This document shows, in pieces, positions 5,379 through 58,626 of a stretch of 64,000 nt of DNA. Within the stretch, counting starts at the first letter, position 1. Each line of letters begins with the position of its first letter. The translations under genes were made by a program, and so were the position numbers. This DNA is from Methanobacteriota archaeon (lineage in GTDB: Archaea; Thermoplasmatota; Poseidoniia; Poseidoniales; Poseidoniaceae), in the NCBI GenBank assembly GCA_018659375.1, contig JABJMO010000002.1, positions 76,373 through 140,372 of the forward strand. Reading direction: 5' to 3'. Below the pieces are notes generated by a model that was not told where the DNA came from, searched no databases, and was given only the letters and a program-made list of their open reading frames with translations.

Positions 5379-5387
5379 AATTTCACC

Positions 5388-6125: not shown

Positions 6126-6216
6126 AGTATCACCAATGAACATTCCTGTAGGATTCAATTGATGAACATTTGTATCGGCAGATTTTTGGATTTAGTAAAA
6201 AGAAACTAACTTCCGA

Positions 6217-9187: not shown

Positions 9188-9229
9188 GTTCTAAAAGCGC
9201 CTGTGGTAGGGACAGATTGGGGAGAACAT

Positions 9230-37153: not shown

Positions 37154-38404
37154 ATGACCGACCCAGTCTACAGTCCAGATGGAAATTACATTTGGAGCGG
37201 TGCAGAGTGGATACCAGCACCACCAAAAAGTAATCAAATTTTGAACCTAAAAGATTCGGTAATTGGTGGAGACGTTGTTCACAATACGGTAATCAACAAT
37301 GATGTTGATGCGGTAACAAATGCTGTAATTACTGCTCTACAACGCCTTGGAATGGTCAACAAAGATGAAACAACTTCCCAAATTGAGGAAATCATAGATA
37401 TGCCGATTTTGGCTAAATTAGAAGTTGGAATGCATGTCGAATATTTCAGTCCAACTAATGAGCGTTGGCTGGATAGGTGTACAATAACTAGGGTTAATCG
37501 CGATGGAAGTTATGATGTTGATGTTCCTAAAACCAGTGGTATAGAATCAAAGCAAAATTTGGATATTGGTGAAGAGCCAAGCAATATTCGTCGCGCTGAT
37601 GATGCTTTGAACAAAGGGGATAGAGTCCTAGTAAATTGGAAGGACTATGGTACTTTTTTCCCTGGTGTAATTGCTGAGGTACAACCTCATCACACATACA
37701 TGATACACTTTGATGATGGTGATGTGGAATCAAGAGTTCCTCCTTCTAGAATTGCCAAGCAAGCAGATTCACAAGCAACACAAGATTATGTTGAGCAAAT
37801 TTCTCAAGAAGAACAAGAACTAATTCAATCATTCAAAGTATTTGATGAGGGCAACACCGGAACTATCCATGCCAGTAAAATGTTCAAAATACTCACAGAA
37901 ATGGGTGATCCACTCGATATTTCTGAAGCAGAGGAAATGTTCTATGAAATGGGTATTTCACTTGATTCTGAAATAAACTACAAAGAATTAGCTAAAATCA
38001 TGGTTCGACCTTTTGGAACGAAATCTGAAGTTATAATCCAAGATGCCGAAATAACAGGTAATTCATTACACGGTTTTGTTTATGCGCATCCCATGCTGGG
38101 CGACGCTCAACTAAAATCTTCTGATATCCTGAAGATAAGTTATGATAATCACGCAACTGCGAGAGTTGAGACAAATAATACAATCTACATTGTTGGCCCA
38201 ACTGGTTGGAGAATTAGACCAAATGACCATCCGTTTAACAAACCAGATTACACTACAGGCCAACAAGTAAAAATTGAATGGAGAGGTAGTTGGTGGGACG
38301 GATTGATTCGTGAAGTAAGGGGAGATAAGTACCTAATCCACTACACTGGGTTTGATTCTAGTTGGGATGAACTAGTAGATGAGAGCAGAATTAGCAATCG
38401 TTAA
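37154..38404 (+). CDS. multi-domain protein: three Tudor/Agenet-like modules plus an EF-hand-like pair
   Basis: Tudor-like segments at about 37415-37528, 37610-37756 (GDRVLVNWKDYGTFFPGVIAEV..HTYMIHFDDGD.E.V) and 38252-38392 (GQQVKIEWRGSWWDGLIREVRGDKYLIHYTGFD). EF-hand-like pair at about 37805-38008 (FKVFDEGNTGTIHASKMFKILTEMGDPLDISEAEEMF...INYKELAKIM). Confidence 0.6.
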   Translation: MTDPVYSPDGNYIWSGAEWIPAPPKSNQILNLKDSVIGGDVVHNTVINNDVDAVTNAVITALQRLGMVNKDETTSQIEEIIDMPILAKLEVGMHVEYFSPTNERWLDRCTITRVNRDGSYDVDVPKTSGIESKQNLDIGEEPSNIRRADDALNKGDRVLVNWKDYGTFFPGVIAEVQPHHTYMIHFDDGDVESRVPPSRIAKQADSQATQDYVEQISQEEQELIQSFKVFDEGNTGTIHASKMFKILTEMGDPLDISEAEEMFYEMGISLDSEINYKELAKIMVRPFGTKSEVIIQDAEITGNSLHGFVYAHPMLGDAQLKSSDILKISYDNHATARVETNNTIYIVGPTGWRIRPNDHPFNKPDYTTGQQVKIEWRGSWWDGLIREVRGDKYLIHYTGFDSSWDELVDESRISNR

Positions 38405-38445: not shown

Positions 38446-39999
38446 ATGTCTAAAGAACCAGTAATCAAGAAGTGGTTCTTTGTTTGTTATGACCAATTAA
38501 ATCACGATTTATTCCCGTGGTCTTTCGGCAATCGTGCAGAAAACGGTCTAATTTTTATCGAATCGAAAATTAAAGGTGACTCGTTAAACTATCACCAACA
38601 AAAATTAGCATTATTACTCTCTAACATGCGACATTTTGCCAAAGAGTCAGAAGATTTAGGCCATCCGGTAAGGTATTACCACACTGATGGTAATTACTCT
38701 GATTTGTTGACAGAAATAACTAGTCAGTTAGGACCAATAAATTTGGTCGAGCCTGCGGAGAGGAGCATGCGAATGGAAGTTAAACCGCTAGTAGAAAGGG
38801 AGAGACTGCAAGTGCACCAACATGATGGATGGTTGACAAAGCGTGATTGGTTTAGCGAAACAGTTGGCACAGAGCCTCCGTTTAGAATGGACAGATTCTA
38901 CAAGAGAGTAAGAAAAGAAACCGGCGTTTTGATGCAAGATGGGAAACCAATGGGCGGTAAATTTAGCTTTGATGCTGAGAATCGTTTGCCATGGAAAGGC
39001 GACCCTGAGACACAATCCGACATTGACTTCGAAGTTGACCAAATCGATATGGAGGTAATGGAACTAGTTAGGTCAAAGTTTGCTGATCACCCAGGTAATT
39101 GCGATCTTAGTAAGGTCCCAACTACCTTAGAACAAAATCACCAGTTGCTAAAATGGGCTATGGACAATATGCAATATTTTGGCCCATATGAAGATGCAAT
39201 GAGTTCTAAAAGCCGGTTTTTATTCCATTCAAAATTAGCGATATCGACCAATCTCTCAAGACTATCAGCCAAAGAGATAGTAGATTCTGCTTTAATGACA
39301 GGAGCTCCATTAAATTGTCTTGAAGGATTTTATCGACAACTAATTTGGCGTGAATATGTTAAGCATGTTCATGATGTTACCGACGGTTTTCGGTCCCTAG
39401 AAGTATATGATATTCAATCTAATCAACCAAACTTCTTGCAACAAAACAATCCCCTGCCTGATGCCTTTTGGGGGAAGAAATCAGGATTTAATTGCTTGGA
39501 TACAGTAGTTGAATCGGTTATGGATGAGGGGTGGACCCATCACATTCCAAGATTGATGGTGTTGAGTAATTTTGCCAGCTTATTAGATATCAATCCAAGA
39601 AAACTGACTACATGGTTTCATGAAGCCTTTATCGATGCTTATGACTGGGTGGTTGAGCCAAATGTGCTTGGCATGGGCACCTATTCTTTAGGCTCTGCAA
39701 TGATGACTAAACCCTACGTTTCGGGTACTCCATACATCAACAAAATGTCAGATTACTGTAAAAGTTGTAAATTCAACCCGAAAAAAGATTGCAAGGTTTC
39801 AAATCTTTATTGGGCATTTCTCGAGCGACATAAGGATTCATTCGAGGGAAATATTAGGATGGCTATGCCACTTCGAAGTCTAGCAAAGCGCAGTGATGAC
39901 AAGAAGCGAGCAGATATAGAAGCATTTCAGGACATAAATGAGGCATTGACTAACGGCCAAGAATATCTGCCATACGTTGAGATGAAACCATTAATCTAG
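38446..39999 (+). CDS. FeS-BCP type cryptochrome/photolyase family protein (COG3046, (6-4) photolyase-like)
   Basis: NCLEGFYRQLIWREY and SDYCKSCKFNPKKDCKVSNLYWAFL supply the four Fe-S cysteines. The overall layout is that of the PhrB/CryB class. Confidence 0.82.
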   Translation: MSKEPVIKKWFFVCYDQLNHDLFPWSFGNRAENGLIFIESKIKGDSLNYHQQKLALLLSNMRHFAKESEDLGHPVRYYHTDGNYSDLLTEITSQLGPINLVEPAERSMRMEVKPLVERERLQVHQHDGWLTKRDWFSETVGTEPPFRMDRFYKRVRKETGVLMQDGKPMGGKFSFDAENRLPWKGDPETQSDIDFEVDQIDMEVMELVRSKFADHPGNCDLSKVPTTLEQNHQLLKWAMDNMQYFGPYEDAMSSKSRFLFHSKLAISTNLSRLSAKEIVDSALMTGAPLNCLEGFYRQLIWREYVKHVHDVTDGFRSLEVYDIQSNQPNFLQQNNPLPDAFWGKKSGFNCLDTVVESVMDEGWTHHIPRLMVLSNFASLLDINPRKLTTWFHEAFIDAYDWVVEPNVLGMGTYSLGSAMMTKPYVSGTPYINKMSDYCKSCKFNPKKDCKVSNLYWAFLERHKDSFEGNIRMAMPLRSLAKRSDDKKRADIEAFQDINEALTNGQEYLPYVEMKPLI

Positions 40000-40015
40000 T
40001 CTGGGTGGAACGTTC

Positions 40016-41098
40016 GTGAAGGTTACAGATTCTATCGATTTAGGGCGCGGTTTTACTGCCAAAAATCGAACTCTTTTAGCGGCGATGACCAACAAGCAAA
40101 GCAACAATGACGGGACATTGTCTGCTGAAGAAATAAAATGGCTTGTTAGAAGGGGCCAAGGTGGATTTGGAATCACTACTACTGCGGCAGCGAATGTCAC
40201 TAAAGATGGGCAGGGCTGGGAAGGTGAAATGGGTGTCTGGAGCGACAACCATATTCCCGGCTTGACAGAATTAGCTGAAAAGCTAAATGAAACAGGTACT
40301 ATTTCATTAGTCCAGTTATTTCATGGCGGCATGAGAGCTCCGCAAAGAATAACTGGTGTTAGACCAATTTCTGCTAGTGAAAATACTGAGTCAGGAATGA
40401 ATGGAGTTTACACTAAGGCAATGACAGAATTAGAAATCAAATCCATGATTCAATCCTTTATTGATGCTGCTATCAGGTGTAAAAAAGCCGGGTTTCACGG
40501 TATAGAATTACATGGTGCTCATTCTTACCTGATTTGCCAATTTTTAGGCCAAGAAACTAATCGAAGAACCGATAAATGGGGCGGTGATATTACCGGAAGA
40601 AGTAGATTCTTGAGTGAAATAATACGTTCTGTTCGTAGTGCAGTGGGTGAAGATTTCCTCATTGCAGTTCGAATTTCTCCCATCATTGAAAAAGCCGGAA
40701 TTTACCTACATGATAGTCTTGAACTAGCCAAGATTATTTGTGAATTGGAAATAGATATGTTGCACATTTCTTGCTGGGACGTATTCCAACCGGTTGATGA
40801 TAGTAATGATAATTCGCTTACCAAACGCTTCCGCCAAGTCATCCCAAAAGGCATGCCACTAATCTCAACTGGAGCTGTATGGGATGGTAAAGATGCGCAG
40901 TGGTTGTCAGACGAAGGGGCCGATATAGTTGGAGTTGCCAGAGTTGGAATCGCCCATCCAGATTGGCCAAAACTCTTGATAGATTCCGATTATCAGCCTC
41001 AAATGCCGCCATTCACTGTTGAACATTTAGCAAATGTAGATCTAAGTCCAGTTTTCATTGAATACATGAAGCGGTGGAAAAACTTCGTAATTCTATAG
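40016..41098 (+). CDS. NADH:flavin oxidoreductase, Old Yellow Enzyme family
   Basis: NRTLLAAM, QLFHGG, ELHGAHSYLICQFL and WGG..TGRSRF blocks. GTG start lies 7 nt after GGGTGG. Confidence 0.85.
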   Translation: MKVTDSIDLGRGFTAKNRTLLAAMTNKQSNNDGTLSAEEIKWLVRRGQGGFGITTTAAANVTKDGQGWEGEMGVWSDNHIPGLTELAEKLNETGTISLVQLFHGGMRAPQRITGVRPISASENTESGMNGVYTKAMTELEIKSMIQSFIDAAIRCKKAGFHGIELHGAHSYLICQFLGQETNRRTDKWGGDITGRSRFLSEIIRSVRSAVGEDFLIAVRISPIIEKAGIYLHDSLELAKIICELEIDMLHISCWDVFQPVDDSNDNSLTKRFRQVIPKGMPLISTGAVWDGKDAQWLSDEGADIVGVARVGIAHPDWPKLLIDSDYQPQMPPFTVEHLANVDLSPVFIEYMKRWKNFVIL

Positions 41099-47677: not shown

Positions 47678-47746
47678 TTTTACCGATTTCATCTTAGTCA
47701 ATCAACAATTAGTTTCATGTGTTGAATGCACATCGGATGATTGTTG

Positions 47747-50700
47747 ATGATGATGAGAAGACTATCTTCGGTAACTTTAGTGACCTTACTATTACTACAA
47801 ACATTAGCTCTGAACTATGTTCCTGAAGTTGATGCTGCAACCGCAAAAGGTGGCTCAAAGGATGACTTTAGTATCTTCAGCATAGAGGTTGGAAACCAGA
47901 CCATACCTACCGAAAAATGGATACAGCCAAACGGTGAGGTTATTGATTACTTACTACAAGATGATTTTATCGAAGTAAAGGTTACTGTTTACAAAGACGG
48001 TTCAGTAACTGGTGTACAAAAACAAACTGAAGCACTGTTAGAAATTGTTCATCCTATCGGTTTCGTAATCGAATCATTTGGCTGGACTACCGGATTGATG
48101 GCTGGTGGTGCTAAAGATGCAACAACAATCTCGTGGAATCCTCAAGAGGCTCATTCTGTTTTGGATACCAATACTAACGAACTATCAGGTGGGCTCATAC
48201 TTAGAGCATCAGTTAATTTCACTGCTGACGACAGAAACGATAATGATATAATGGAAAAGCAAGTACCAATCGCAGTATACAAAGACATCTTTGATGGTGA
48301 AGCCTCTGGTACCTCGCTCACCTTTAGACCAGCTCGCTATCCTATTGGTGGGGGTGACGCTAATGATTATGGCTCTTGGTATGAGGATAATACAGATGCA
48401 ACCTCCGGCAGTTCTCACTGGAGAATGTCTTTGCCAGGTGGTAACACATATCCGTCCAGTGCCTTTGACAGATTAGTTCACTCATATAAAAATCCAGATA
48501 ATAATTGCAATGGTGACCAGCTAGACTCTGGTTTGACAAATTTAGAACAAGCATGGGTTTGCCGTAAAATTTTCCAATCACAAAATTATATTTCCAGCCA
48601 AATACATCTTCAAGCATGGGGTACAATGGGTGCAGGAGATGCTGCTTACCTAGAGTTCTGGAATAACAATGGGAATTTTTCAGACCCGTTACAATCAGTA
48701 CATTGGGATGTTGCAGAAATAAATCCTAGTCCAATTCCAGGTCAATGGAAAAATATTTCCTGGGACCCGCAAACAGTATGGTCTCAAAATCCATCCTTAG
48801 CAAATCCAGATTTGTTCTTAGGCGGCAATTCATGGACCTTCGGTTTAGTATTCAGGTCAGACAGTTCAAGCGCAACTCAAGGTATGCATTTTGATGATTT
48901 TGTTCAATTCGGTGTCTCTAAGGTGGATGGTTTTACTCTTACTGCTAACTGTGATAATCCAGTTGGTGGATTTGAAACGGTGCCAAATGATTTAGTTTCA
49001 TGGAAGTGTTTAGTGACCAACAATGGCTACAAAAATGTCCAATTCCGAGCACAAACCAATGTCACAAATTCCTCATGGATGAACCCTACAGTGCCCCAGT
49101 TAAGGCTTGATACCACCAATCCAAATGACAACGATTTCAGTGTGGTTATTCCACCCATAGGTCCATTTGAAACCACTGAGGTTTGGGCGAATCTTTCTAT
49201 ACCGGTTGGCGCAGATGTCCAAATTCAAGATTGGGATATATGGTTTACTGATGCTAGTTCAGCCAACACAGGTGAGAAAGCTAGAGTGTCAACAACTGTT
49301 TCGATAGATTCTCAATACAGTGTGAGGCTAAACTCAAATGCCAATCAAATAGCGCTTACTATGACTCCGGGTGAAACTGCAAATCTACCATTCCAAATCA
49401 CCAATACCGGTAATTTAGATTCAACATTCGAGTTACGCTCAACCTTTAACGCAGAATTATGGAGCGGTACCATACAAGACGATGTTGGAAATGCTATTAC
49501 TTCTATATTTATGGAAAAGGGCACATCTACAGACTTATCGCTCTCCATATCTGCTGAACAGCAAGCCACTCCAGGTCAAATATCTGTCGAGATAAGGGCA
49601 ACAAGAACTAGCGGTAATGTGGTTGGCGATACAACTCTTAATCGGTTGATTAATGTACCAATCTATCGGGACAGCAACCTTGAGGTTGACTATTCATCAC
49701 CTTACTTTTCGACCGACGAAAGTGGTTTACCAGTAGTTGTTGGCTATGCTAATGGCGAAGAAAAAATGCTTAGAATGACGCTATTTAATAACGGTAATGA
49801 TGAAGAATCATTCAATATTACAGTGGCCAATAATTTCCCGATATATTACCGGCAAACAGGTGCAACTGTAGATAATGTTGAATCACCTTTGCTAAACGAA
49901 TGGGGTGGTACTTGGAGTTTCTTCTTGAATTTGCCAATGCCTCTTGGTCTGCCTGAGGGGTTTTACGATGTTATAGTGACTGCTACTAACGTGAACGACC
50001 CGTCACTATCCGTAAGTGAAGTAGTCTCGATTGAGGTCAAGAAAACTGCCAGTGTCCACGTTGAAACAGATATTTCTGACCAGTCTTACATCCCAGGTGA
50101 TCTTGCTCAATCAATGACTTTCGAAGTCACCAATAATGGAAATATCCAAGATACCTTTGAAATGAGTCTAAATCTCCCTCAAGGTATGAATGCTCAATTC
50201 ACCAACCTTGTTGATGGCTCAAAGACCGTACCAATCAATAGCGGTGCTAGTTACAACGTAACCGTCGAATTTTCGTTTGTTGAAGGTACCAGTGCTGATC
50301 TAAATATGGTAATCATTGCTAAGAGTCTTTTTGATGAGACGGTAATTGCTAGTGGTGGTTCAACTTACTCTGTTGGAAGTACCAATCAATTGTTGAAGAT
50401 TTTACCTTCACAGTTGGTCATAATCGACGACTTTGAAAATGAAGTAACCTTAGAAGTGACAGTTAGAAACCAATATTCAACAGCGCAATCAGTTTCGATG
50501 GACATCGGTGCTGGAAACTCTAGCAGTTGGTTCCAATCAAGAATTGATAGTAATGATCGACAATTTGTCCTTGGTACTGGAGATGATTCCATTAGGGTTA
50601 TTACAGTTACATTCCAAGTCACTGAATCAACTCTGATGACGCTTGATCAGCCAACATTTGATTCTGAAATAACACTCTATGCCAGGTCAGATACCGTCGC

Positions 50701-51196
50701 AGAAGTAGCTCAATCAGAAATCCAAGTCCAACTCAGGAAAATAATCATCGAAACGAACGATGATCAGGGTTCTTCTTTTGACCTTGCTGGAGCTGCAATG
50801 TGGTTTGGATTTGTTCTAGTAATGGTAGCAGGAATTGTGATTGCAATTAGAATTCTCAAGAATGTTGAAGATGAAGATGATGAATATGCCAATTGGGGGC
50901 AAGAAGGTTACCAAGATAGTATTACAGCAACATACCAATCGGTAATTTCTGCGCCTACGGTTCCATCAGGTCCGCCTGCAACCTTGCCATCATCCATGCC
51001 ACCTCAATCAGCACCACCTGCAAGTGTGCCATCATCTATGCCGCCGAAGTCTGCTCTACCAGCACAATCAGCACCATCTGCCCCTTCGCAACCGTCAGGA
51101 CCTCCTCTTCCAGCCACTGGACTACCCGCTGGGTGGACTATGGCACAATGGGGTGCATATGGCGCTCAGTGGCTTGAACAAAACGAGCAACAATAA
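47747..51196 (+). CDS. giant cell-surface protein with repeated CARDB-like beta-sandwich modules, C-terminal TM anchor and Pro-rich cytoplasmic tail
   Basis: Signal peptide. Recurring ..[VF].N.G[NY]....F.. strands (VTNNGYKNVQF, ITNTGNLDSTFEL, LFNNGNDEESFNI, VTNNGNIQDTFEM). TM helix MWFGFVLVMVAGIVIAI. Tail PSSMPPQSAPPASVPSSMPPKS... Confidence 0.7.
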   Translation: MMMRRLSSVTLVTLLLLQTLALNYVPEVDAATAKGGSKDDFSIFSIEVGNQTIPTEKWIQPNGEVIDYLLQDDFIEVKVTVYKDGSVTGVQKQTEALLEIVHPIGFVIESFGWTTGLMAGGAKDATTISWNPQEAHSVLDTNTNELSGGLILRASVNFTADDRNDNDIMEKQVPIAVYKDIFDGEASGTSLTFRPARYPIGGGDANDYGSWYEDNTDATSGSSHWRMSLPGGNTYPSSAFDRLVHSYKNPDNNCNGDQLDSGLTNLEQAWVCRKIFQSQNYISSQIHLQAWGTMGAGDAAYLEFWNNNGNFSDPLQSVHWDVAEINPSPIPGQWKNISWDPQTVWSQNPSLANPDLFLGGNSWTFGLVFRSDSSSATQGMHFDDFVQFGVSKVDGFTLTANCDNPVGGFETVPNDLVSWKCLVTNNGYKNVQFRAQTNVTNSSWMNPTVPQLRLDTTNPNDNDFSVVIPPIGPFETTEVWANLSIPVGADVQIQDWDIWFTDASSANTGEKARVSTTVSIDSQYSVRLNSNANQIALTMTPGETANLPFQITNTGNLDSTFELRSTFNAELWSGTIQDDVGNAITSIFMEKGTSTDLSLSISAEQQATPGQISVEIRATRTSGNVVGDTTLNRLINVPIYRDSNLEVDYSSPYFSTDESGLPVVVGYANGEEKMLRMTLFNNGNDEESFNITVANNFPIYYRQTGATVDNVESPLLNEWGGTWSFFLNLPMPLGLPEGFYDVIVTATNVNDPSLSVSEVVSIEVKKTASVHVETDISDQSYIPGDLAQSMTFEVTNNGNIQDTFEMSLNLPQGMNAQFTNLVDGSKTVPINSGASYNVTVEFSFVEGTSADLNMVIIAKSLFDETVIASGGSTYSVGSTNQLLKILPSQLVIIDDFENEVTLEVTVRNQYSTAQSVSMDIGAGNSSSWFQSRIDSNDRQFVLGTGDDSIRVITVTFQVTESTLMTLDQPTFDSEITLYARSDTVAEVAQSEIQVQLRKIIIETNDDQGSSFDLAGAAMWFGFVLVMVAGIVIAIRILKNVEDEDDEYANWGQEGYQDSITATYQSVISAPTVPSGPPATLPSSMPPQSAPPASVPSSMPPKSALPAQSAPSAPSQPSGPPLPATGLPAGWTMAQWGAYGAQWLEQNEQQ

Positions 51197-51265: not shown

Positions 51266-52888
51266 ATGTACGGTAATGGACAAGCACCCATATTTATTTT
51301 GAAAGATGGCACTCAAAGGACAAGAGGAAGAACTGCTCAATCAAATAACATAGCGGCTGCCAAAGCAGTAGCAGATGCGGTTAGGTCAACTTTGGGTCCA
51401 AAAGGAATGGACAAGATGTTGGTTGATTCAATGGGTGACGTAGTCATCACTAATGATGGTGCAACCATTCTCAAAGAAATGGACATAGAACACCCTGCGG
51501 CAAAGATGATTATCGAAGTTGCTAAGACACAAGAGCAACATTGCTTCGACGGAACAACAACTGCTGTTGTATTATCTGGTGAACTTCTCAAGAGAAGTGA
51601 AGACCTCATTGAACAAAATGTACATCCTACAGTAATTTGTGAGGGTTTTAGGTTAGCCGCCGAAAAAGCAGTTGGTCTACTCGGGAGTCACGGAATTGAA
51701 ACCAAAAACGACGATGCTGTACTGATGGAAGTTGCTAAGACTGCTTTAACCGGAAAGTCAGCGGGTGCTGTGAAGTCATTCATGGCAGATATTTGTGTTA
51801 GGGCGGTAAACGCAGTTGGAATTATTGACGGTGAACAAAGAATAGTAGACTTGTCTGATATTAAAGTCGAAAAGCGACAAGGCGGTTCAATCAAAGACTC
51901 TACCCTCATTGATGGAATAATCTTGGATAAGGAAAGAGTTCATGCAGGTATGCCAAGATCAATATCTGGCGCTAAAATAGCCTTAGTGAACTCAGCGATT
52001 GAAGTTAAGAAAACCGAAGTGGATGCTAAAATACAAATTACCGATCCGAACCAACTTTCCAAATTCCTCGAGGAAGAAGAAAACTACATCAGAGGACTAG
52101 TTGAAAAGATTAAGAATTCTGGTGCAAATGTACTAATTTGTCAAAAGGGAATTGATGAACTTGCTCAACACTATATGGCAAAATCAGGTATTTTCGCAAT
52201 ACGCCGAGCCAAGAAATCTGATATGGAAGCATTATCAAAGGCTACAAGCGGTAAAATTGTTACTAATTTAGATGATTTGACTCCAGAGGACTTGGGTAAT
52301 GCAGAGCGCGTTGAGGAAAAGAAAATTGGAGAATCAGAGATGACATTCATTACTGGATGCCCTGAAGCAAAATCAGTTTCAGTATTACTCAGGGGTGGTA
52401 CAGAACACGTAGTTGATGAAATTAGAAGAGCGTTTGATGATGCTGTTGGCGTGGTATCCGTGGCTTGGGAAGATGGTGCAGTTCTAACTGGAGGGGGTAG
52501 TGTTCTTGCCGCTCTTTCACGTGATTTGAGGACCTTTGCAGAAACAGTCGGAGGAAGAGAGCAGATGGCTATTGAAGCATTTGCTTCGGCGCTAGAAATA
52601 GTTCCAAGAACCTTGGCGGAAAATGCTGGATTAGATCCAGTTACAACACTGATAGAGCTTCGAAAAGCTCACGCAGACGGTCAGTCTCACGCTGGAATCA
52701 ATGTTTACGAAGGTGGAGTAGTCGACATGAGAAAGGCCAACGTCATAGAACCACTACGTGTTGTTGAACAAGCAATTCAATCTGCTACAGAGACCGCAGT
52801 AATGATTTTGCGAATCGACGATGTTATTTCATCCAAGGGCGTATCCATGGGTAGCGAAATGGGCGACATGGGCGACTTCCAGATGTAA
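51266..52888 (+). CDS. ths: thermosome subunit (group II chaperonin)
   Basis: [21 protein letters not shown], the apical helical-protrusion region, and a C-terminal GDMGDFQM tail. Confidence 0.95.
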
Positions 52889-52986
52889 TCTGGCCGATAA
52901 ATTATCTCGCACAGCAAATCAACTCTCCTTGGGAGAGCAAGCAACCTTCAAAGACTACGGCGGTTTGGCATCACTGAGTGAGTATA

Positions 52987-55146
52987 ATGCCAGAAGTCGC
53001 TGATAGGAATCTTACCATCTATTTTGGTTCCCAAACAGGCAATGCAGAGGAACTTGCAAGTAAAACTGCTAAGTTAGCCAAAAAATTCAATCTCTCTGCG
53101 AAGGTAGTTGACCTTGGAGATATAAAACCAGAAGATTTTACTTCGTCAAAAAGAGCGCTCATCATCACTTCTACTTGGGGAGAAGGCGAGATGCCGGATA
53201 ACTCAGAATCTATTTGGGCAGCAACCTGTGAATCAAATCCAAATTTGTCTACAGTAAATTTCAGCATCTGTGCAATTGGTGACACATCATATGATGAATT
53301 CTGTAAGGCTGGATTAGATTGGGATGAGAAGTTCAAACAGCTTGGCGCCAACTGCGTTCATGATATTCAACTGTGTGATGTAGAATATGAACCCGAATGG
53401 CAAACATGGGCCAATTCAGCATTACAAGCAATGTCTGATGTAGACACTGGAACTGTAATGGTTGATGAGTCAGAAGCAACGGCACAAGTAGAAACAGCAT
53501 CCGCCCCAGTTGCCTCAGGAAGTGCCAGTGCAGGACTATCTTCTCTGTTTGAAGGTGACAGATCTCTAGCCATTTTATTTGGATCACAAACCGGAAATGC
53601 TGCTGCTCTGGCTGAAAAGACAGCGAAAATGGCTGCTGATTATGGATTGATTCCTACCGTTTACGATATGGATGGATTTGATGCAGCAACATTAGCAACT
53701 CACAAACGCACTCTGATAATCACTTCAACATGGGGCGAAGGAGAAATGCCTGATAATGCTGAATCACTATGGCAGGCGGTAAATTCTAACTCACCTTCAC
53801 TCTCTGGAGTAAATTTTAGTATTTGTGCAATCGGGGACACAGCTTATGACGAGTTTTGTAAAGCTGGAACTGACTGGGATGACAAATATGAATCGCTAGG
53901 GGCTAGTAGAGTCCACCAAATACAACTGTGCGATGTTGACTTTGAACCGCCATTTGTCACATGGGTTGCTCAGGCTTTGCCAAAGATTGCCTGTGTTGAC
54001 TCATCAGGAACCCTACAAATCGAGCTACTCGACGAAATGATTGCTTATGGTTCAAGTGGAGATGACGAAGTAGTTTCAGGAGATTTTGCTCCTGGGGTTG
54101 TGGATGAAACAGAACTAACTGTAACAGTCGAAATCTTCCGTTACTGCCCAAGTGCAGCCGAGTCCGGATGGGATACAATCGTATGTTCACTTCCTGCTAA
54201 TGCCTCCATACAAGACATGTTACTTGCCATCAAGAATGATGTTGACGGAAGTCTGACTTTCAGGATGGGTGACGGCAGTGGTACTGCAAGTTGTGGAATT
54301 AGAATCAACGGCAGACTTGTTCTCGCAGATACAACATCAATTGGAAGCGTTACTAAAGCAGATGGAAGATTAAAAATCGAACCACTATCTGGATACCCGG
54401 TCATTAGAGATTTGATGGTAGACTATTCGAAGTTTGAAGAAAACCGCATGAAAGCTAAGCCATGGATGCAATCTAATCCACGTGAGGGAGAGTACCTGTT
54501 AAACGGTATGGCGGTTGGAACAATGTCCAAAGAACAAGCGTCTAAACTACATTCTTCAAGTGACATTAAATCGTATTATTTACTTCACTCAATGTCTGAT
54601 ACAGTTACTTATGATTCAAAATACGAAGGCCCCGGAATTCATCTACAAAGATGGAATCGAGTCATCGACCCAAGGTCTAGCGAGACATTCAAGAACTCAC
54701 TTATTGATTCGCTAAATAACTCAACTGGAGTTTGGGGAGAAGCCGATCTAGCATCGATTGCTAGGTATGGGCAAGAGGGTAAAACAGCCTCATCCGGTCT
54801 CAATGACGTTCGCGCCTACATCCTAAACCAAACCAACTACAGAGGTCCACATGGAAGACTGGTCAAGTGGTACGGAAGAAGCGTCAAATGGACTGGTAAA
54901 TTGAACGAAACTACGCTATATCGCCAAGTTCTTGGCCCTATTGGCCTGCTGAGTAACATTTTCGATGGCGTTTCTGCTCGAATGGTACTAGGATTCACTA
55001 GAACTGGTGGGCCTCCGATTAGAAGTCTACAAGCATTGGTATTACCACCTTCAGGTATTGGTAAAATACCAAATATGTTCAATTCCAAAGTTAAGAACCA
55101 TCACCAAGTTGTCGGATTGTTTAACGAAATTGACCAGAGGTTTTGA
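52987..55146 (+). CDS. fusion protein: two flavodoxin-like FMN domains plus a cysteine-depleted SdhB/FrdB-like domain plus an unknown C-terminal extension
   Basis: Flavodoxin 1 at about 53011-53428 and flavodoxin 2 at about 53566-53983 (GSQTGNA...STWGEGEMPDN...FSICAIGDT.YDEFCKAG). The SdhB-like region at about 54100-54830 is colinear with E. coli SdhB but lacks the Fe-S Cys blocks. An alternative GTG start exists at 52978. Confidence 0.8.
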   Translation: MPEVADRNLTIYFGSQTGNAEELASKTAKLAKKFNLSAKVVDLGDIKPEDFTSSKRALIITSTWGEGEMPDNSESIWAATCESNPNLSTVNFSICAIGDTSYDEFCKAGLDWDEKFKQLGANCVHDIQLCDVEYEPEWQTWANSALQAMSDVDTGTVMVDESEATAQVETASAPVASGSASAGLSSLFEGDRSLAILFGSQTGNAAALAEKTAKMAADYGLIPTVYDMDGFDAATLATHKRTLIITSTWGEGEMPDNAESLWQAVNSNSPSLSGVNFSICAIGDTAYDEFCKAGTDWDDKYESLGASRVHQIQLCDVDFEPPFVTWVAQALPKIACVDSSGTLQIELLDEMIAYGSSGDDEVVSGDFAPGVVDETELTVTVEIFRYCPSAAESGWDTIVCSLPANASIQDMLLAIKNDVDGSLTFRMGDGSGTASCGIRINGRLVLADTTSIGSVTKADGRLKIEPLSGYPVIRDLMVDYSKFEENRMKAKPWMQSNPREGEYLLNGMAVGTMSKEQASKLHSSSDIKSYYLLHSMSDTVTYDSKYEGPGIHLQRWNRVIDPRSSETFKNSLIDSLNNSTGVWGEADLASIARYGQEGKTASSGLNDVRAYILNQTNYRGPHGRLVKWYGRSVKWTGKLNETTLYRQVLGPIGLLSNIFDGVSARMVLGFTRTGGPPIRSLQALVLPPSGIGKIPNMFNSKVKNHHQVVGLFNEIDQRF

Positions 55147-55154
55147 GTGATAAA

Positions 55155-56012
55155 ATGCCAAAGATTGCTTATTATCCTGGTAATGTTGCCCGAGCTGCTT
55201 CAATGGAAGTAGAGGATTGTATACAACCGCTATGCAAAACCTTGGGTATTGATTTAATTGAATTGCCAGAAGCGACTAGTGATGGTGGTAATATTATCAA
55301 GCAAGCTTCAACAAAATTACAACATGCTTTGGTTGCAAGAAACCTAGCATTGGCTGAAGAAAAAGGGCTAGATATCATGACTACTTGCGCAACAAGCCAT
55401 GGGATTATGAAAGATACTATGCAAGATTTGAAAGATGACCCTGTCTATTCTGCCCAATTAAATAACTTGATTGCCCGTTCTACGGGTGTTGAGTACCGAG
55501 GTGAAGCAGAGTCATGGCATCTATTGCACTACTTAGTAGAAGAGATTGGCCTTGACAAAATTAACGACGCAGTAATTAATCCAATCGATCTCAACATTGC
55601 ACCTTATTATGGACCAAATATGCAAAGAGAGGGGTTTTGTGCCCAAGACGACCCATTTATGCCGTCCTATCTAGAGCAACTCATTACCGCATTAGGTGGC
55701 CGACCGGTAAATTACGACTTAAAGTGTCAAAGTGTCGGTGCCCCCTCATTACTTACTCTAGAAAAACCCGTTATGTCCCTCATATCATCTGTTATTAGTG
55801 ACGCAAAATCAAATGGTGCTGATATAATAGTGAGTGCTTGTACAGTATCTCACTCAAACCTTGATTCATATCAATCTAAGGCAGGGCGTAAGACTGGTAA
55901 AAATACCAGTATACCTGTGATACATCTAGCTGAACTAGTAGCCTTTGCCTTGGGTCATTTCCCTGACAGATTGGCACAGTTGAGAACTAGAGCAATTTTG
56001 ATTGGTGGCTGA
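55155..56012 (+). CDS. HdrB/SdhE-like double CCG-domain protein with degenerate cysteine motifs
   Basis: Colinear with HdrB as I recall it from M. marburgensis: KIAYYPGN vs EIAYFLGC, ATSDGG vs ASCCPAPG, TTCATSHG vs TECNGCFG, PYYGPNM vs VHYGCHF, KCQSVGAP vs MCCGAGG, SACTVSHSNLD vs NVCPFCHLQFD, IPVIHLAELVAFALG vs IPVLHLAQLLGLAMG. Starts 8 nt after the upstream stop. Confidence 0.75.
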   Translation: MPKIAYYPGNVARAASMEVEDCIQPLCKTLGIDLIELPEATSDGGNIIKQASTKLQHALVARNLALAEEKGLDIMTTCATSHGIMKDTMQDLKDDPVYSAQLNNLIARSTGVEYRGEAESWHLLHYLVEEIGLDKINDAVINPIDLNIAPYYGPNMQREGFCAQDDPFMPSYLEQLITALGGRPVNYDLKCQSVGAPSLLTLEKPVMSLISSVISDAKSNGADIIVSACTVSHSNLDSYQSKAGRKTGKNTSIPVIHLAELVAFALGHFPDRLAQLRTRAILIGG

Positions 56013-56019
56013 AATTTAC

Positions 56020-58626
56020 TCAGGCATATAAAAAAGGCATAATAAGTTCATAATTCTCAGCGCTCAAAATCTCAGATAGCCTTGCTTTATCGGATTTTAA
56101 AATATCAGCGATTGAATCGAATCTGTCAAATAATTGAAGGCAAATTTCCAAATCTAAGTCAGTTATTTGACACAATATTGTTGCTTGCTTATTTATTCCA
56201 TCAGTATTCCACCTGGCTAACAAGGTGTGTGACTCATCACCTTGATTGACCATTGCTGCGATTTCTTGTGCAGCGTTGCTACAGTGCTTTTCAATGGCAC
56301 CATCTTCGATGCTTTGATACTTCACACAAGCGCGCATTTTCGTTGAAAAGTTTTGATTATTCCTAGCAATTAAAAATATCAAATGAGCAGATTCCATTGA
56401 GTCTTTTGTTGTCAAAATCGGCACGCCTAAGTCTAAACTAACATGTGCTAAAGCGCCGAGTACCGCGTTGGGGTGAACTGAATTGCCTATTTCTCCAAGT
56501 TCAATTAATAATATTGGCTGATTGGTAGATTGTCTCATTCTTTGGCACTGTTTGAACAATCTTTGATCAATTATTGAGGTTAGTAAGTCACGCGAAGTTT
56601 TCCGCTCAATTAGAATGTCCTTTGTTAACAAAATATCACCAGTTTCTAAGTTTTCAAATCTAACCGACATTCCAAGGCTGGTAAGATAGGCAGATAAAGT
56701 CGAAGACGCTTCCCGGTGATCAAGAACCACATTCATTTCAATGGTTTGAGATAAGGTTTGAATGACTTCATTAGTGGCTTTTATCGCAGATACTTCATGC
56801 TCTCTGGTAATCTTCTCAGTATTCTTTTCTTGAAAAAAGTCATCTAAGCCAGTCTGATTTCTCGGGCGCTTATCTTTTGGTGCAATAGCAGTTTGATTTA
56901 CCGGTGTATCGGGCTGTTCTATAGAATTTATATTAGTTTCATCTTTAATTATTTGATATTCAAGATTGAGTCGTTCTTGCTCAATTGTCAGGAATTTCTC
57001 GGCAGGAATTTGATTGTCTCCCAACTTGACTGCAAAACTCGATAGAACATCTCCAGAAGCTGGTTCGCGTAATGGGATTCGCCCCATTCGCTGTACTTCC
57101 TCAAGATTTTTGTACATACGTCGCTCTCTTACCTTAGCTGCATTGTTGACAAATTCATCCCTTGTGTTGCGCGCAATTAATGTCTTTACCGTACCCGAAC
57201 TCTGTCTAGCAGTACGTCCACGCCTTTGTATTGCTCTTATGGCGCTTGGCACCGGTTCATACATCAAAACGAGATCAGCAGATGGGACGTCCAATCCCTC
57301 TTCCCCAACAGATGTTGCAACCAGTACATTTACTTCTCCAGAGCGAAATTCTTCAAGTCTTGCCAATTGTTCTTTCTGCGTCATACCCTTTTGTTTTCCG
57401 CTAGTGGCTTGCCCAATAAATGGTGCTACCTTAACCTCATCAATATTTTTGAGTACTTGATTGAGATTTTGCACAGTGTATCTGTACTCTGTAAATATGA
57501 GAATACGTGAATTAGGATTTTCTTTCAACCTTTCAGTAATCATATCGCTTACTTGGGTGACCTTTGGGTGTATCTCGCCGAGTTTTTCAGCCGCCTTCCT
57601 GAAGTTGTGAATTACCGGTTTTGCAATGAATCGATTTGTCCCTCTGCCACCAGTTCTGCCTTCGTCTTCGGCTTTGTCGAGAAATAATGTTGCTGGTATT
57701 ACTCCTTGAGTCCTGAGCAAGTCTAGTAGCATGTGCATTCTGCGAACATCCGAAACTTTACGCGCAGCGTTGTAACCTCTAGCGTCTCTTCGACTAATTG
57801 CCCTGCTAACAGATTGCTGTGCATCGGTTATGATTTTTGAAGTGAGATTTTTTACTGGAGCCATAAAACCCATCCTCTGTAAGGTTTCAACTTCTGTTGA
57901 TTGATATTCTTGCAATGGGTAAATAAGTGTATTTAATGTGTCAGGAAGGTCGACTGGGACAATGTCGTTTTGTAAGTCGACAGCATATGGTTTTAGCATT
58001 ACTTCATCTCTTTTGGAGATGTCAAGCCTGTCGATTCCTAATCTTTTGGCAACCTCAAGTATCGATGATTTTGTAGTCCCAGGGCTGGCTGTAGCACCCA
58101 AAGTATAGCCATTAGGGTTGGCAGCAAGGAATAAGTCTCCAACTTGAGCGTAAGGATGATTTCCTGTGGCATGATGAGCCTCATCGAAAATTAACAACGC
58201 CACGTCACTTAAGGAAATAATGTTGTTAATTGCATCATTTCTAATCACTTGGGAAGTAGCCATCAAAATTTTACCTACATCCCACACTGAACGTCGCTTA
58301 CTTGGTGGTGTTTCACCGGTATATCTTACGATTGTCTCGGGATCTATGTTTAACATCTCTCGAGCCATTCTCTGTTGTTGATCGACTAATCCAGTAGTAG
58401 GCGCAATTAGAATTATTTTTTTGTCAGATAAACGGAGGGTCTCTGCCATGAGCATCCATTGTACTGCTGTTTTACCAAAACCTGTTGGCATTACCATCAA
58501 ACATGAAGATGTCAATGCGTTTTTTAGTGCCCTAATTTGATATCCCCTTGCTTCAACACCATCTTGTAAAAGCGGGTGTATCATCGTAGGCATCAAAGGT
58601 TCTTTTGGCCGAGGGTTCAAAAGCAT
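56020..58626 (-). CDS. hef: Hef helicase-nuclease (SF2 helicase plus ERCC4/XPF nuclease plus HhH2)
   Basis: PTGFGKT, DEAHH, QRRGRTAR, then the ERCC4 motif GDILL....ERKTSRDL and a C-terminal helix-hairpin-helix-like tail. Confidence 0.88.
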   Translation of the reverse strand: MLLNPRPKEPLMPTMIHPLLQDGVEARGYQIRALKNALTSSCLMVMPTGFGKTAVQWMLMAETLRLSDKKIILIAPTTGLVDQQQRMAREMLNIDPETIVRYTGETPPSKRRSVWDVGKILMATSQVIRNDAINNIISLSDVALLIFDEAHHATGNHPYAQVGDLFLAANPNGYTLGATASPGTTKSSILEVAKRLGIDRLDISKRDEVMLKPYAVDLQNDIVPVDLPDTLNTLIYPLQEYQSTEVETLQRMGFMAPVKNLTSKIITDAQQSVSRAISRRDARGYNAARKVSDVRRMHMLLDLLRTQGVIPATLFLDKAEDEGRTGGRGTNRFIAKPVIHNFRKAAEKLGEIHPKVTQVSDMITERLKENPNSRILIFTEYRYTVQNLNQVLKNIDEVKVAPFIGQATSGKQKGMTQKEQLARLEEFRSGEVNVLVATSVGEEGLDVPSADLVLMYEPVPSAIRAIQRRGRTARQSSGTVKTLIARNTRDEFVNNAAKVRERRMYKNLEEVQRMGRIPLREPASGDVLSSFAVKLGDNQIPAEKFLTIEQERLNLEYQIIKDETNINSIEQPDTPVNQTAIAPKDKRPRNQTGLDDFFQEKNTEKITREHEVSAIKATNEVIQTLSQTIEMNVVLDHREASSTLSAYLTSLGMSVRFENLETGDILLTKDILIERKTSRDLLTSIIDQRLFKQCQRMRQSTNQPILLIELGEIGNSVHPNAVLGALAHVSLDLGVPILTTKDSMESAHLIFLIARNNQNFSTKMRACVKYQSIEDGAIEKHCSNAAQEIAAMVNQGDESHTLLARWNTDGINKQATILCQITDLDLEICLQLFDRFDSIADILKSDKARLSEILSAENYELIMPFLYA

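What the first reader, a model, noticed from the sequence alone, without database searches (positions are those of the whole stretch)
52987..55146. Double-flavodoxin fusion to an SdhB/FrdB homologue that has lost its Fe-S cluster cysteines: candidate iron-free electron-transfer subunit
The region at about 54100-54830 is colinear with succinate dehydrogenase/fumarate reductase Fe-S subunits. Compared with E. coli SdhB as I recall it: FSIYRYNPD vs VEIFRYCPS, LSFRRSCREGVCGS vs LTFRMGDGSGTASCG, IRPLPGLPVIRDLVVDM vs IEPLSGYPVIRDLMVDY, and FIGPAGLLAAYRFLIDSRD vs YEGPGIHLQRWNRVIDPRS. The ligand blocks are gone. CILCACCSTSCP corresponds to LLHSMSDTVTY, and the second C...C...CP block corresponds to GEADLASIARYGQEG. 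Of the 2Fe-2S ligands, at most one Cys remains. Only three Cys occur in the roughly 350-aa SdhB-like part, whereas three clusters need 10-11 ligands. Two tandem flavodoxin-type FMN domains (53011-53428 and 53566-53983) are fused in front instead. They share their signature blocks nearly verbatim in protein sequence but differ at many synonymous sites, so the duplication looks old. An unknown tail of about 100 aa follows. Replacement of Fe-S carriers by flavodoxin is a known iron-sparing strategy in marine microbes. A structural SdhB scaffold that swaps all three clusters for FMN domains would be a new variant of that theme. No sdhA, sdhC or sdhD lies in the window.
Basis: partly seen in the sequence, partly recalled or inferred. 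Interest (0 to 1): 0.85.

Follow-up and report, generated by a model that had tools for sequence, protein, structure and literature searches.

The report
Iron-free SdhB/HdrB relic with swappable carriers
Marine Group II archaea all carry a two-gene module made from succinate-dehydrogenase parts that lost every iron-sulfur cluster. It keeps only attached electron-carrier domains, and the outermost one is swapped between an iron-containing ferredoxin and an iron-free flavodoxin among near-identical strains.

Summary
ORF 52987-55146 encodes two CysJ-type FMN (flavodoxin) domains, then an SdhB homologue with none of its 11 cluster cysteines.

- The "unknown tail" is the C-terminal extension of long, non-classical (SdhABE/type-E-like) SdhBs.
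- The next gene (55155-56012) has a full HdrB/SdhE fold (TM 0.88) but has also lost its CCG cysteines.
- The first flavodoxin is a replaceable cassette. Contigs about 96% identical in flanking DNA carry a [4Fe-4S] ferredoxin domain at the same position.

The pair is core to Poseidoniales: 285 GTDB species, fixed synteny, dN/dS 0.01-0.10. Deeper relatives carry ferredoxin only, with one CCG cluster retained. So cluster loss came before flavodoxin gain and does not depend on it.

The gene is therefore not an SdhB whose clusters were swapped for FMN. It is a cofactor-less SdhB'/SdhE' scaffold with tethered carriers. This window holds the zero-iron allele.

The function is inferred, not shown: low-potential electrons relayed through FMN to a site on the scaffold or to a docked partner.

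No paper found describes this module. I rate it a new variant of known kinds, interest about 0.7.

The parts
52987..55146 (+). Gene 1: Fld1-Fld2-SdhB' fusion, 719 aa from the ATG (the mechanical ORF starts at GTG 52978)
   Evidence: ORF list. Pfam and NCBIfam domains. Homologues start at MPEVA. dN/dS 0.01-0.10 against L004 and L005.
52974..53550 (+). Replaceable N-terminal cassette: ribosome-binding region, start codon, flavodoxin 1 and linker. In sister alleles it is replaced by a 394-nt cassette encoding a [4Fe-4S] Fer4_13 ferredoxin and linker.
   Evidence: In blastn of window against L004, 94% identity ends at 52973 and 93.4% identity resumes at 53551, with no homology between. The same break appears in L092 against L093, whose flanks are 95-96% identical. 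Pfam Fer4_13 on P0014, 3e-10.
53011..53428 (+). Flavodoxin domain 1 (outer carrier, FMN, CysJ/MioC type)
   Evidence: Pfam Flavodoxin_1. PDB 1ykg CysJ FMN domain at 1.4e-21, with the motifs SQTGNA, STWGEGE and GDTSY kept. Foldseek TM 0.91 to 1ykg.
53566..53983 (+). Flavodoxin domain 2 (inner carrier, FMN). Present in all MGII members and the most constrained part.
   Evidence: Pfam best stretch aa 199-320. CPR and NOS FMN domains at 1e-18 to 1e-19. dN/dS 0.01. Near-invariant across 51 sequences.
54100..54834 (+). SdhB' core: Fer2_3-like N-domain plus helical C-domain of SdhB, with all cluster ligands replaced
   Evidence: The only Cys are 390, 403 and 439.
54835..55143 (+). Conserved tail. It is homologous to the C-terminal extension of long (SdhABE-type) SdhBs, plus a roughly 20-aa insertion. 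It probably binds the HdrB' partner.
   Evidence: Alignment A4. dN/dS 0.014-0.019. AF2 pLDDT is about 30 when modelled alone, despite the highest conservation. The binding role is inferred.
55155..56012 (+). Gene 2: HdrB'/SdhE'. It has the HdrB fold with both CCG cluster sites lost. Only two former ligand cysteines survive, at codons 55386-55388 and 55839-55841.
   Evidence: PDB HdrB 8rvv_B at 1e-33; TIGR03288 at 5e-40; MFR SdhE at 8e-32. AF2 pLDDT 88.7 and Foldseek TM 0.88 to HdrB. Ligand columns are now N10, S42, D43, C78, S193, V194, C229, S232 and H233, invariant in 49 sequences, with P154 near-invariant.

Best explanation
**Shown.**
- Genes 52987-55146 and 55155-56012 form a two-gene module that is core to Poseidoniales (Marine Group II archaea).
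- The module descends from two subunits of a non-classical SdhABE (type-E-like) succinate:quinone oxidoreductase: the iron-sulfur subunit (long SdhB with a C-terminal extension) and the CCG-domain subunit (SdhE/HdrB-like).
- Both proteins keep their folds and evolve under strong purifying selection, but neither has any cluster-binding cysteine motif left.
- The only predicted redox cofactors sit in carrier domains fused to the N-terminus through flexible linkers. The inner one is a CysJ-type FMN domain that is always present in MGII. The outer one is either a [4Fe-4S] ferredoxin or a second FMN domain.
- The two outer domains are alleles of one cassette at one locus and are exchanged within species-level populations.
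- This window carries the all-flavin allele, which needs no iron.

**Inferred.**
- The module works as a tethered-carrier electron relay.
- The outer carrier takes low-potential electrons, for example from the 2-oxoacid:ferredoxin oxidoreductases reported as core genes in MGII.
- The inner FMN passes them to an acceptor bound at the conserved polar pocket that replaced the clusters of HdrB'/SdhE'. The acceptor would be a quinone, by analogy with SdhE, EtfD and WrbA, or a disulfide, by analogy with HdrB. Alternatively the FMN passes them to a partner docked on the scaffold.
- The ferredoxin/flavodoxin polymorphism is an iron-economy adaptation.

**My confidence by part.** Descent and architecture about 0.9. 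The cassette as an allelic polymorphism about 0.9. A redox relay role about 0.5. The specific acceptor 0.3 or less.
For: **Domains and cysteine loss.**

**Folds.**
- SdhB chains rank first for the C-terminal half.
- The HdrB' model has pLDDT 88.7 and TM 0.88 to HdrB.
- The FMN-binding motifs are kept in both flavodoxin domains.

**Ancestry.**
- Among the closest cluster-bearing SdhBs, the one whose locus was examined (P0277, E 3e-15) lies in an sdhA-sdhB-CCG operon.
- SdhB' is colinear with it to the C-terminus.

**Graded series of partners.**
- The canonical SdhE has both CCG sites.
- Partners of Fd-SdhB' (L088), Fd-Fd-SdhB' (L089) and a Fd-Fld form (L090) keep only CCG site 1.
- The partner of the one Thalassarchaeaceae (MGIIb) Fld-Fld locus examined (L091) keeps two site-1 cysteines, one CCG Cys and the first CxxC Cys. 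All examined MGIIa partners keep no site-1 cysteine except that first CxxC Cys. None has a complete CCG site.

**Conservation.**
- 285 GTDB species encode a relative; the best 80 loci returned are all in Poseidoniales MAGs apart from one bin labelled Rhodobiaceae.
- Synteny is identical.
- dN/dS is 0.01-0.10.
- The residues that replaced the ligands are themselves invariant.

**Cassette.**
- The replacement boundaries are clean.
- Fld-Fld and Fd-Fld forms are intermingled at the tips of the tree of the shared part.
- P0003 and P0021 are 99.6% identical outside the cassette.
- Their flanks are 95-96% identical in DNA.
- Among 69 typed species representatives, 43 are Fd-Fld and 26 are Fld-Fld.
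- Both forms also occur in Thalassarchaeaceae.

**Metabolic context from the literature.** In PMC6336850 Suppl. Data 10, 'cysJ' is present in 158/158 and 91/92 genomes and korA/korB in about 90%. That I equate these 'cysJ' clusters with this gene is my inference.
Against: - No biochemical data exist, and no partner or acceptor is identified.
- The best-conserved segment, the tail, could not be modelled alone, so its contact with HdrB' is inferred.
- FMN in a flavodoxin fold normally hands electrons to a metal or flavin centre in a partner. Direct reduction of a quinone or disulfide at a cluster-less HdrB pocket has no characterised precedent.
- The link to iron is not clean. The closest species genome (98% identical fusion protein) is a North Sea MAG and carries the iron-free allele.
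- The apparent excess of Fld-Fld forms in open-ocean MAGs is confounded by phylogeny.
- 'sdhC' in the published core-gene table may be this very HdrB' gene, and no sdhD is listed there. A link to complex II therefore cannot be dismissed.
Confidence: 0.45

Rival explanations
1. The fusion is an iron-free stand-in for SdhB. It docks onto SdhA, with HdrB' as the SdhE-type anchor, and its FMN domains replace the three-cluster wire of complex II.
For: - The SdhB fold and its most typical surface motifs are kept (DGSLTFR, IEPL.G.PVIRDL.VD).
- Its ancestor worked with SdhA and SdhE.
- JGI names the partner 'succinate dehydrogenase cytochrome b subunit'.
- The published MGII core table lists sdhA, sdhB and one 'sdhC' cluster but no sdhD. 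The anchor of MGII complex II is therefore unresolved.
Against: - The Cys-less SdhB' exists without any flavodoxin in deeper relatives.
- No sdhA is linked in about 90 loci.
- A separate 'sdhB' cluster is reported in about 90% of MGII genomes.
- Tethered FMN domains cannot reproduce a fixed three-cluster chain (inference from general knowledge of complex II).
- Sister alleles use an iron-containing ferredoxin, so the family as a whole is not iron-free.
Confidence: 0.12
2. The SdhB'/HdrB' pair is a purely structural adaptor with no active site. It only positions the tethered ferredoxin or flavodoxin carriers, for example at the membrane or on another enzyme. The carriers then serve several unrelated acceptors.
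For: - The outer carrier can be exchanged with 97-99.6% identity in the rest of the protein, so no co-adaptation is needed.
- Long disordered linkers separate the domains.
- All metal sites are lost.
Against: - The residues that replaced the cluster ligands are themselves invariant. In HdrB' these are N10, S42, D43, C78, S193, V194, C229, S232 and H233. In SdhB' they are D451, S540 and the W586-E-x-D-x2-S-x2-R block, with D541 and T542 in at least 90% of sequences.
- That pattern points to a maintained pocket rather than a filled-in core.
Confidence: 0.2
3. HdrB' has become a cofactor-independent two-cysteine enzyme or a redox-active dithiol site. It uses the one cysteine kept in each pseudo-symmetric half (C78 and C229). 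The flavodoxin domains supply or sense reducing power.
For: - Exactly one former ligand Cys per CCG half is invariant, from canonical SdhE through to MGII.
- The model gives weak fold matches to two-Cys Asp/Glu racemases (TM about 0.4, E about 1e-4).
- Pfam gives a faint Asp_Glu_race hit at E 0.05.
Against: - The racemase similarity is at the level of a generic two-Rossmann-domain cleft.
- The two cysteines could be kept for structural reasons.
Confidence: 0.08
4. The gene is a decaying pseudogene, or an assembly or frameshift artefact removed the Cys-containing segments.
For: None beyond the missing cysteines.
Against: - The alignment is colinear and ungapped through all three ligand blocks.
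- dN/dS is 0.01-0.10.
- The module is present in 285 species genomes and in hundreds of independent contigs.
Confidence: 0.01

Closest known systems
SdhB + SdhE of non-classical (type E / SdhABE, MFR-type) succinate:quinone oxidoreductases (Sulfolobus SdhE, PMC2754724; Wolinella/Campylobacter SdhABE, PMC2680327)
   Same: - Both subunits are homologous over their full length, including the C-terminal extension specific to long SdhBs.
- The B gene is followed directly by the E gene.
- The examined close cluster-bearing relative, P0277, lies in an sdhA-sdhB-CCG operon.

   Different: - There is no sdhA.
- All 11 SdhB ligands and both CCG motifs are lost.
- Ferredoxin and flavodoxin domains are fused to the N-terminus.
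- A roughly 20-aa insertion sits in the tail.
- Scores fall far below the NCBIfam cutoffs (80 against 344 bits; 111 against 500 bits).
HdrB of methanogen heterodisulfide reductase (PDB 5odc_B, 8rvv_B)
   Same: The fold is the same: TM 0.88, E 1e-33, 26-29% identity over the structural alignments. The two-domain pseudo-symmetry is kept.
   Different: Both noncubane [4Fe-4S] sites are gone, with one Cys left per half. There is no HdrA or HdrC. The host is an aerobic heterotroph.
FMN domain of CysJ / cytochrome P450 reductase / MioC flavodoxins
   Same: The sequence motifs and fold of both flavodoxin domains match: 1ykg at 1.4e-21, TM 0.91. Like those domains, they are tethered shuttle modules.
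   Different: There is no FAD/NADPH reductase domain. Two FMN domains lie in tandem, or one ferredoxin plus one FMN domain. They are fused to a cofactor-less SdhB.
Ferredoxin/flavodoxin substitution under iron limitation (isiB/fldA against petF in cyanobacteria and diatoms)
   Same: An iron-containing and an iron-free carrier are interchangeable in the same functional slot.
   Different: Here the two carriers are not separately regulated genes. They are alternative alleles of a domain cassette inside one conserved ORF, segregating within species-level populations. Control by iron is not shown.

Membership tests
SdhB/FrdB iron-sulfur subunit | N-terminal plant-ferredoxin-like domain (Pfam Fer2_3) | tested here: met
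   52.3 bits against a gathering cutoff of 27, aa 384-487.
SdhB/FrdB iron-sulfur subunit | C-terminal bacterial-ferredoxin-like domain recognised as Fer4_8 or Fer4_17 | tested here: not met
   No Fer4 family appears at E up to 1, whereas canonical P0277 hits Fer4_8 and Fer4_17. Homology of this region is still seen by NCBIfam, PDB and Foldseek.
SdhB/FrdB iron-sulfur subunit | Eleven Cys ligands for the [2Fe-2S], [4Fe-4S] and [3Fe-4S]/[4Fe-4S] clusters | tested here: not met
   All ligand columns are replaced. The only Cys present is C439, which the family does not conserve.
SdhB/FrdB iron-sulfur subunit | Score above curated NCBIfam cutoffs | tested here: not met
   Best model PRK12576 scores 80.4 bits against a cutoff of 344.
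SdhB/FrdB iron-sulfur subunit | Genetic linkage and complex with the flavoprotein SdhA | tested here: not met
   No sdhA lies in the window or in about 90 related loci. Physical interaction cannot be tested here.
HdrB/SdhE CCG-domain proteins | Two CCG motifs, CXnCCGXmCXXC | tested here: not met
   The motifs now read N / SD / C..S and P / SV / C..S. Pfam CCG scores 20.1 bits against a cutoff of 20.6.
HdrB/SdhE CCG-domain proteins | HdrB fold | tested here: met
   AF2 pLDDT 88.7. Foldseek TM 0.88 and rmsd 2.3 Å to 8rvy_B and 5odc_B.
Flavodoxin / CysJ-type FMN domain | Flavodoxin_1 profile and FMN-binding loops (SQTGNA; aromatic-GEGE; GD[TS]SY) | tested here: met
   186.5 bits against a cutoff of 25, in two stretches. 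The motifs align with the CysJ FMN domain 1ykg. FMN binding itself is not testable with these tools.
Diflavin reductase (CysJ/CPR) | FAD- and NADPH-binding ferredoxin-reductase domain after the FMN domain | tested here: not met
   TIGR01931 cysJ scores 238 bits against a cutoff of 668, and only profile positions 58-224 are matched. Pfam finds no FAD or NAD binding domain.
Iron-responsive ferredoxin/flavodoxin replacement | Iso-functional Fe-S and FMN carriers occupying the same slot | tested here: met
   The cassette is allelic at an identical locus, and the remainder of the protein is 97-99.6% identical.
Iron-responsive ferredoxin/flavodoxin replacement | Choice of carrier governed by iron availability | not testable with these tools
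   There is only a crude hint, confounded by phylogeny, from MAG names. No sample iron data are available.

The most novel reading that the evidence does not exclude
The module is a working respiratory or redox enzyme whose whole electron path has been rebuilt without iron. On this reading the lineage went step by step from five Fe-S clusters (SdhB + SdhE), to about two (ferredoxin plus one CCG cluster), to one (Fd-Fld), to none (Fld-Fld).

The enzyme would be a ferredoxin/flavodoxin-dependent quinone or disulfide reductase, or an alternative partner of SdhA. The ferredoxin/flavodoxin cassette would be kept as a balanced polymorphism, tuned by iron supply, in the most abundant planktonic archaea of the surface ocean.
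Probability: 0.25. Interest if true: 0.85.

Novelty: new variant of a known kind. Interest (0 to 1): 0.7.

Why it matters
**Scale.** Poseidoniales are among the most abundant archaea of the surface ocean, where iron limits growth. This module is in essentially every genome. It is most likely the gene the published pangenome labels 'cysJ', which occurs in 249 of 250 genomes. No paper found describes it.

**It would show three things.**
1. The SdhB and HdrB folds can be kept under strong selection with no metal clusters at all. This challenges the automatic 'iron-sulfur' names now attached to these proteins. It may also inflate KEGG-based calls of complex II subunits in MGII.
2. Ferredoxin-to-flavodoxin replacement can occur as an allelic domain cassette inside one gene. 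That gives a compact, sequence-readable marker that could be mapped against iron in ocean metagenomes.
3. It offers a candidate route by which low-potential electrons from 2-oxoacid:ferredoxin oxidoreductases are handled in archaea that lack a complete Rnf complex.

Tried and rejected
- **Pseudogene or assembly error.** Rejected on dN/dS, the colinear alignment and 285 species.
- **Flavodoxin 1 as a recent tandem copy of flavodoxin 2.** Rejected. They are 59% identical in protein, and most MGIIa Fld1 domains form their own clade. P0037/P0038 and the MGIIb forms P0244/P0246 look like separate duplications or gene conversions.
- **Full-length AF2 model.** The domains are well folded, but the tail (aa 620-722) has pLDDT about 30. 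No statement about tail structure is possible.
- **Cys-Cys distance.** The distance between the two surviving HdrB' cysteines could not be measured. Model coordinates are not exposed.
- **Finding a canonical MGII SdhB.** The last homologue search used the cluster-bearing relative P0277. The top 120 hits were Nitrospirota, Chloroflexi and others, with none from MGII, so the result is inconclusive. Cluster look-ups of the closest canonical SdhBs gave almost no taxonomy. I therefore rely on the published pangenome table for the existence of a separate sdhB.
- **Literature.** Searches on flavodoxin + MGII/Poseidoniales, type E SdhE/CCG, ferredoxin oxidoreductase + MGII, and sdhA/sdhB + MGII found no description of this module. 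Only PMC6741140 mentions the two genes, under automatic names.
- **Lost script.** One script call returned nothing and was repeated in another form.
Full report
**1. What is in the window**

The window is from a Marine Group II archaeon. Its fusion, thermosome and L3 proteins are 98-99% identical to their homologues on a North Sea Poseidoniales MAG contig (L006). GC content is about 41%.

The ORF at 52978-55146 (+) most likely starts at ATG 52987, because homologues begin MPEVA. The next gene starts at ATG 55155, 8 nt after the stop codon, and ends at 56012.

The neighbours are a thermosome gene (51266-52888), a Hef-type helicase/nuclease on the minus strand (56020-58626), and the L3/L4 ribosomal-protein operon.

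**2. Check of the observation**

*Domains.*
- Pfam finds two Flavodoxin_1 domains (E 3.6e-55) and a Fer2_3 domain (E 6.6e-14).
- NCBIfam SdhB models align aa 378-587, but score far below their cutoffs.
- E. coli SdhB aligns at 3e-11.
- On the AF2 model, Foldseek ranks SdhB chains first at 3e-12. It matches the FMN domains to the CysJ FMN domain with TM 0.91.
- The FMN-binding loops are intact in both flavodoxin domains.

*Cysteines.*
- Only Cys 390, 403 and 439 lie in aa 375-722.
- In an alignment with cluster-bearing long SdhBs, all 11 ligand columns are replaced, with no gaps.

*sdhA.* No SdhA-like ORF is in the window.

**3.

(a) *The tail is not an unknown sequence.* It aligns to the very C-terminus of about 310-330-aa SdhBs. 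The shared motif reads G.RHA.AF....G.LNE..L, which here is GRLVKWYGRSVKWTGKLNETTLYRQVLGP. There is one insertion of about 20 aa. The examined close cluster-bearing relative, P0277, sits in an sdhA-sdhB-CCG operon on an archaeal contig. That arrangement is the non-classical SdhABE (type-E-like) layout (PMC2754724, PMC2680327).

(b) *The downstream protein is an unmistakable HdrB/SdhE homologue that has lost both CCG motifs.*
- Sequence matches: PDB 8rvv_B at 1e-33; TIGR03288 at 5e-40; MFR SdhE at 8e-32.
- Structure: AF2 pLDDT 88.7 and TM 0.88 to HdrB.
- The ligand positions now read N / SD / C..S in the first half and P / SV / C..S in the second.
- These replacement residues are invariant across 49 MGIIa sequences (P154 near-invariant). 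One cysteine per half is kept: C78 and C229 in ATG numbering.

(c) *The family has two main architectures.* One is about 720 aa, Fld-Fld-SdhB'. The other is about 656 aa, and carries a Fer4_13 [4Fe-4S] ferredoxin (CITCDAC...ACPVE) in place of flavodoxin 1.

**4. The N-terminal domain is an allelic cassette**

*Clean boundaries.*
- Against a ferredoxin-type Tara contig (L004), the window is 94% identical up to position 52973.
- It is non-homologous over 52974-53550, which is 577 nt against 394 nt in L004.
- It is 93.4% identical again from 53551.

*Tree pattern.* In a tree of the shared part of 114 proteins, the two types are intermingled at the tips in several sister pairs. Three deeper clades are Fld-Fld only.

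*Within-species evidence.*
- P0003 (Fld-Fld) and P0021 (Fd-Fld) differ at 2 residues in about 530 (99.6%).
- Their contigs are 96.1% identical over 3.9 kb downstream. Upstream they are 95% identical to within about 25 nt of the start codon.

*One slot per genome.*
- Synteny is the same for both types, and the thermosome-to-gene spacer is only about 100 nt. There is therefore one slot per genome.
- Both cassette types diverge roughly in step with the rest of the gene.
- Most MGIIa Fld1 domains form a clade apart from Fld2.
- So both alleles are old, and they persist or recombine among close relatives.

*Counts.* Among typed GTDB species representatives, 43 are Fd-Fld and 26 are Fld-Fld. Both types also occur in Thalassarchaeaceae, MGIIb.

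**5. Evolutionary series**

A search of 1.8 billion representatives with aa 375-722 finds about a dozen full-length 50%-identity clusters of the family. E-values then fall from 1e-47 to 1e-16, where the cluster-bearing SdhBs begin. The most distant members sit in the same synteny and are all Cys-less in the SdhB' part.

| Form | Example | State of the partner's CCG sites |
|---|---|---|
| Canonical SdhB + SdhE | L086 (P0277) | both sites intact |
| Fd-SdhB' | P0254 / L088 | site 1 kept, site 2 lost |
| Fd-Fd-SdhB' | P0250 / L089 | site 1 kept, site 2 lost |
| Fd-Fld-SdhB' | P0248 / L090 | site 1 kept, site 2 lost |
| Fld-Fld (MGIIb) | P0246 / L091 | no complete site; site 1 keeps one CCG Cys and the first CxxC Cys |
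| All MGIIa loci examined | window, L001, L004 and others | no complete site; one Cys kept per half |

Predicted iron content thus falls from five clusters, to about two, to one, to none. Cluster loss in SdhB' came before any flavodoxin was acquired.

**6. Selection and distribution**

- dN/dS against L004 and L005 is 0.01 for Fld2, 0.05-0.10 for the SdhB' core, and 0.014-0.019 for the tail.
- 285 GTDB species genomes encode a relative. The best 80 loci returned are all in Poseidoniales MAGs, apart from one bin labelled Rhodobiaceae.
- In a published pangenome, 'cysJ' is present in 158/158 MGIIa and 91/92 MGIIb genomes. This is most likely the KEGG name given to this gene; that match is my inference from the automatic names of the syntenic genes. 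The same table lists separate rows for sdhA, a single 'sdhB' cluster (145/83), a single 'sdhC cytochrome b' cluster (151/85) and no sdhD. korA/korB, the 2-oxoacid:ferredoxin oxidoreductase genes, are also core (PMC6336850 Suppl. Data 10).
- JGI gives the 'cytochrome b subunit' name to HdrB' proteins P0129 and P0130. The 'sdhC' row may therefore be this gene.
- Another paper lists the two genes beside the ribosomal operon, under automatic names only (PMC6741140).

**7. Interpretation**

*Shown.* This is a cofactor-less SdhB'/SdhE' pair derived from an SdhABE enzyme, carrying tethered carrier domains. The outer carrier is a ferredoxin/flavodoxin allelic cassette. This window holds the iron-free allele.

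*Inferred.* The module relays low-potential electrons.
- The outer carrier collects them.
- The invariant inner FMN delivers them to a conserved polar pocket on the scaffold, or to a docked partner.
- The parallel 'ferredoxin domain to CCG cluster' in the deep relatives resembles HdrC to HdrB.
- CCG proteins such as SdhE and EtfD, and flavodoxin-like WrbA, reduce quinones (general knowledge). For that reason a quinone or a disulfide is my preferred acceptor, at low confidence.

*Iron.* The iron-economy reading follows from the known ferredoxin/flavodoxin biology of marine microbes. It has no direct support here. Open-ocean MAG names (SP, NP, SAT) are mostly Fld-Fld, and coastal or marginal-sea ones (Puget Sound CM001443.1, Saanich Inlet, Red Sea, Mediterranean, Fram Strait) are mostly Fd-Fld. 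This pattern is confounded by phylogeny. It is also contradicted by the closest species genome to the window, a North Sea MAG, which carries the iron-free allele.

**8. Comparison and verdict**

- The protein fails the defining tests for SdhB: cluster ligands, curated score cutoffs and SdhA linkage.
- The partner fails the CCG motif test.
- Both keep the folds.
- The flavodoxin domains pass as CysJ-type FMN domains, but the protein is not a diflavin reductase.
- No paper found describes the module.

I rate it a new variant of known kinds.

Noticed in passing
window 4446-6158 (-) and 9203-10405 (+): Electron-transfer flavoprotein alpha and beta subunits lie next to an acyl-CoA dehydrogenase, with no ETF:quinone oxidoreductase in the window. 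CCG-domain proteins such as EtfD serve that role elsewhere, and EtfD appeared among the fold matches of HdrB'.
   Followed up: no
window 10412-11716 (-) and 11848-12873 (-): Two adjacent squalene/phytoene synthase (SQS_PSY) paralogues, at E 1e-72 and 7e-45.
   Followed up: no
window 37154-38404 (+): A 416-aa archaeal protein combines Tudor/Agenet-like and EF-hand domain hits. All are below or near the Pfam cutoffs. The combination is unusual for an archaeon.
   Followed up: no
window 38446-41098 (+): A photolyase-related DPRP/FAD_binding_7 protein is followed by an Old-Yellow-Enzyme-type FMN oxidoreductase.
   Followed up: no
window 47741-51196 (+): A 1151-aa protein with a signal-like N-terminus, a C-terminal membrane helix and a Pro/Ser/Ala-rich tail has no Pfam match. 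It is syntenic upstream of the thermosome gene across MGII and may be an S-layer or surface protein.
   Followed up: partly
L088 5490-7943: In the deepest relative (a 3.0-Mb contig, GC 68%), a PLD-domain protein is inserted between the thermosome gene and the Fd-SdhB' gene. This lineage's ribosomal protein L3 is only 53% identical to the window's.
   Followed up: partly
PMC6336850 Suppl. Data 10 against window 55155-56012: The MGII core-gene table lists one 'sdhC cytochrome b' cluster and no sdhD. JGI gives that same KEGG name to the Cys-less HdrB' proteins. KEGG-based calls of a complete complex II in MGII may therefore partly rest on this gene.
   Followed up: partly
P0037/P0038 and P0244/P0246: The first flavodoxin domain of these members groups with Fld2 domains rather than with the main MGIIa Fld1 clade. 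This suggests repeated duplication or gene conversion producing tandem flavodoxins.
   Followed up: partly
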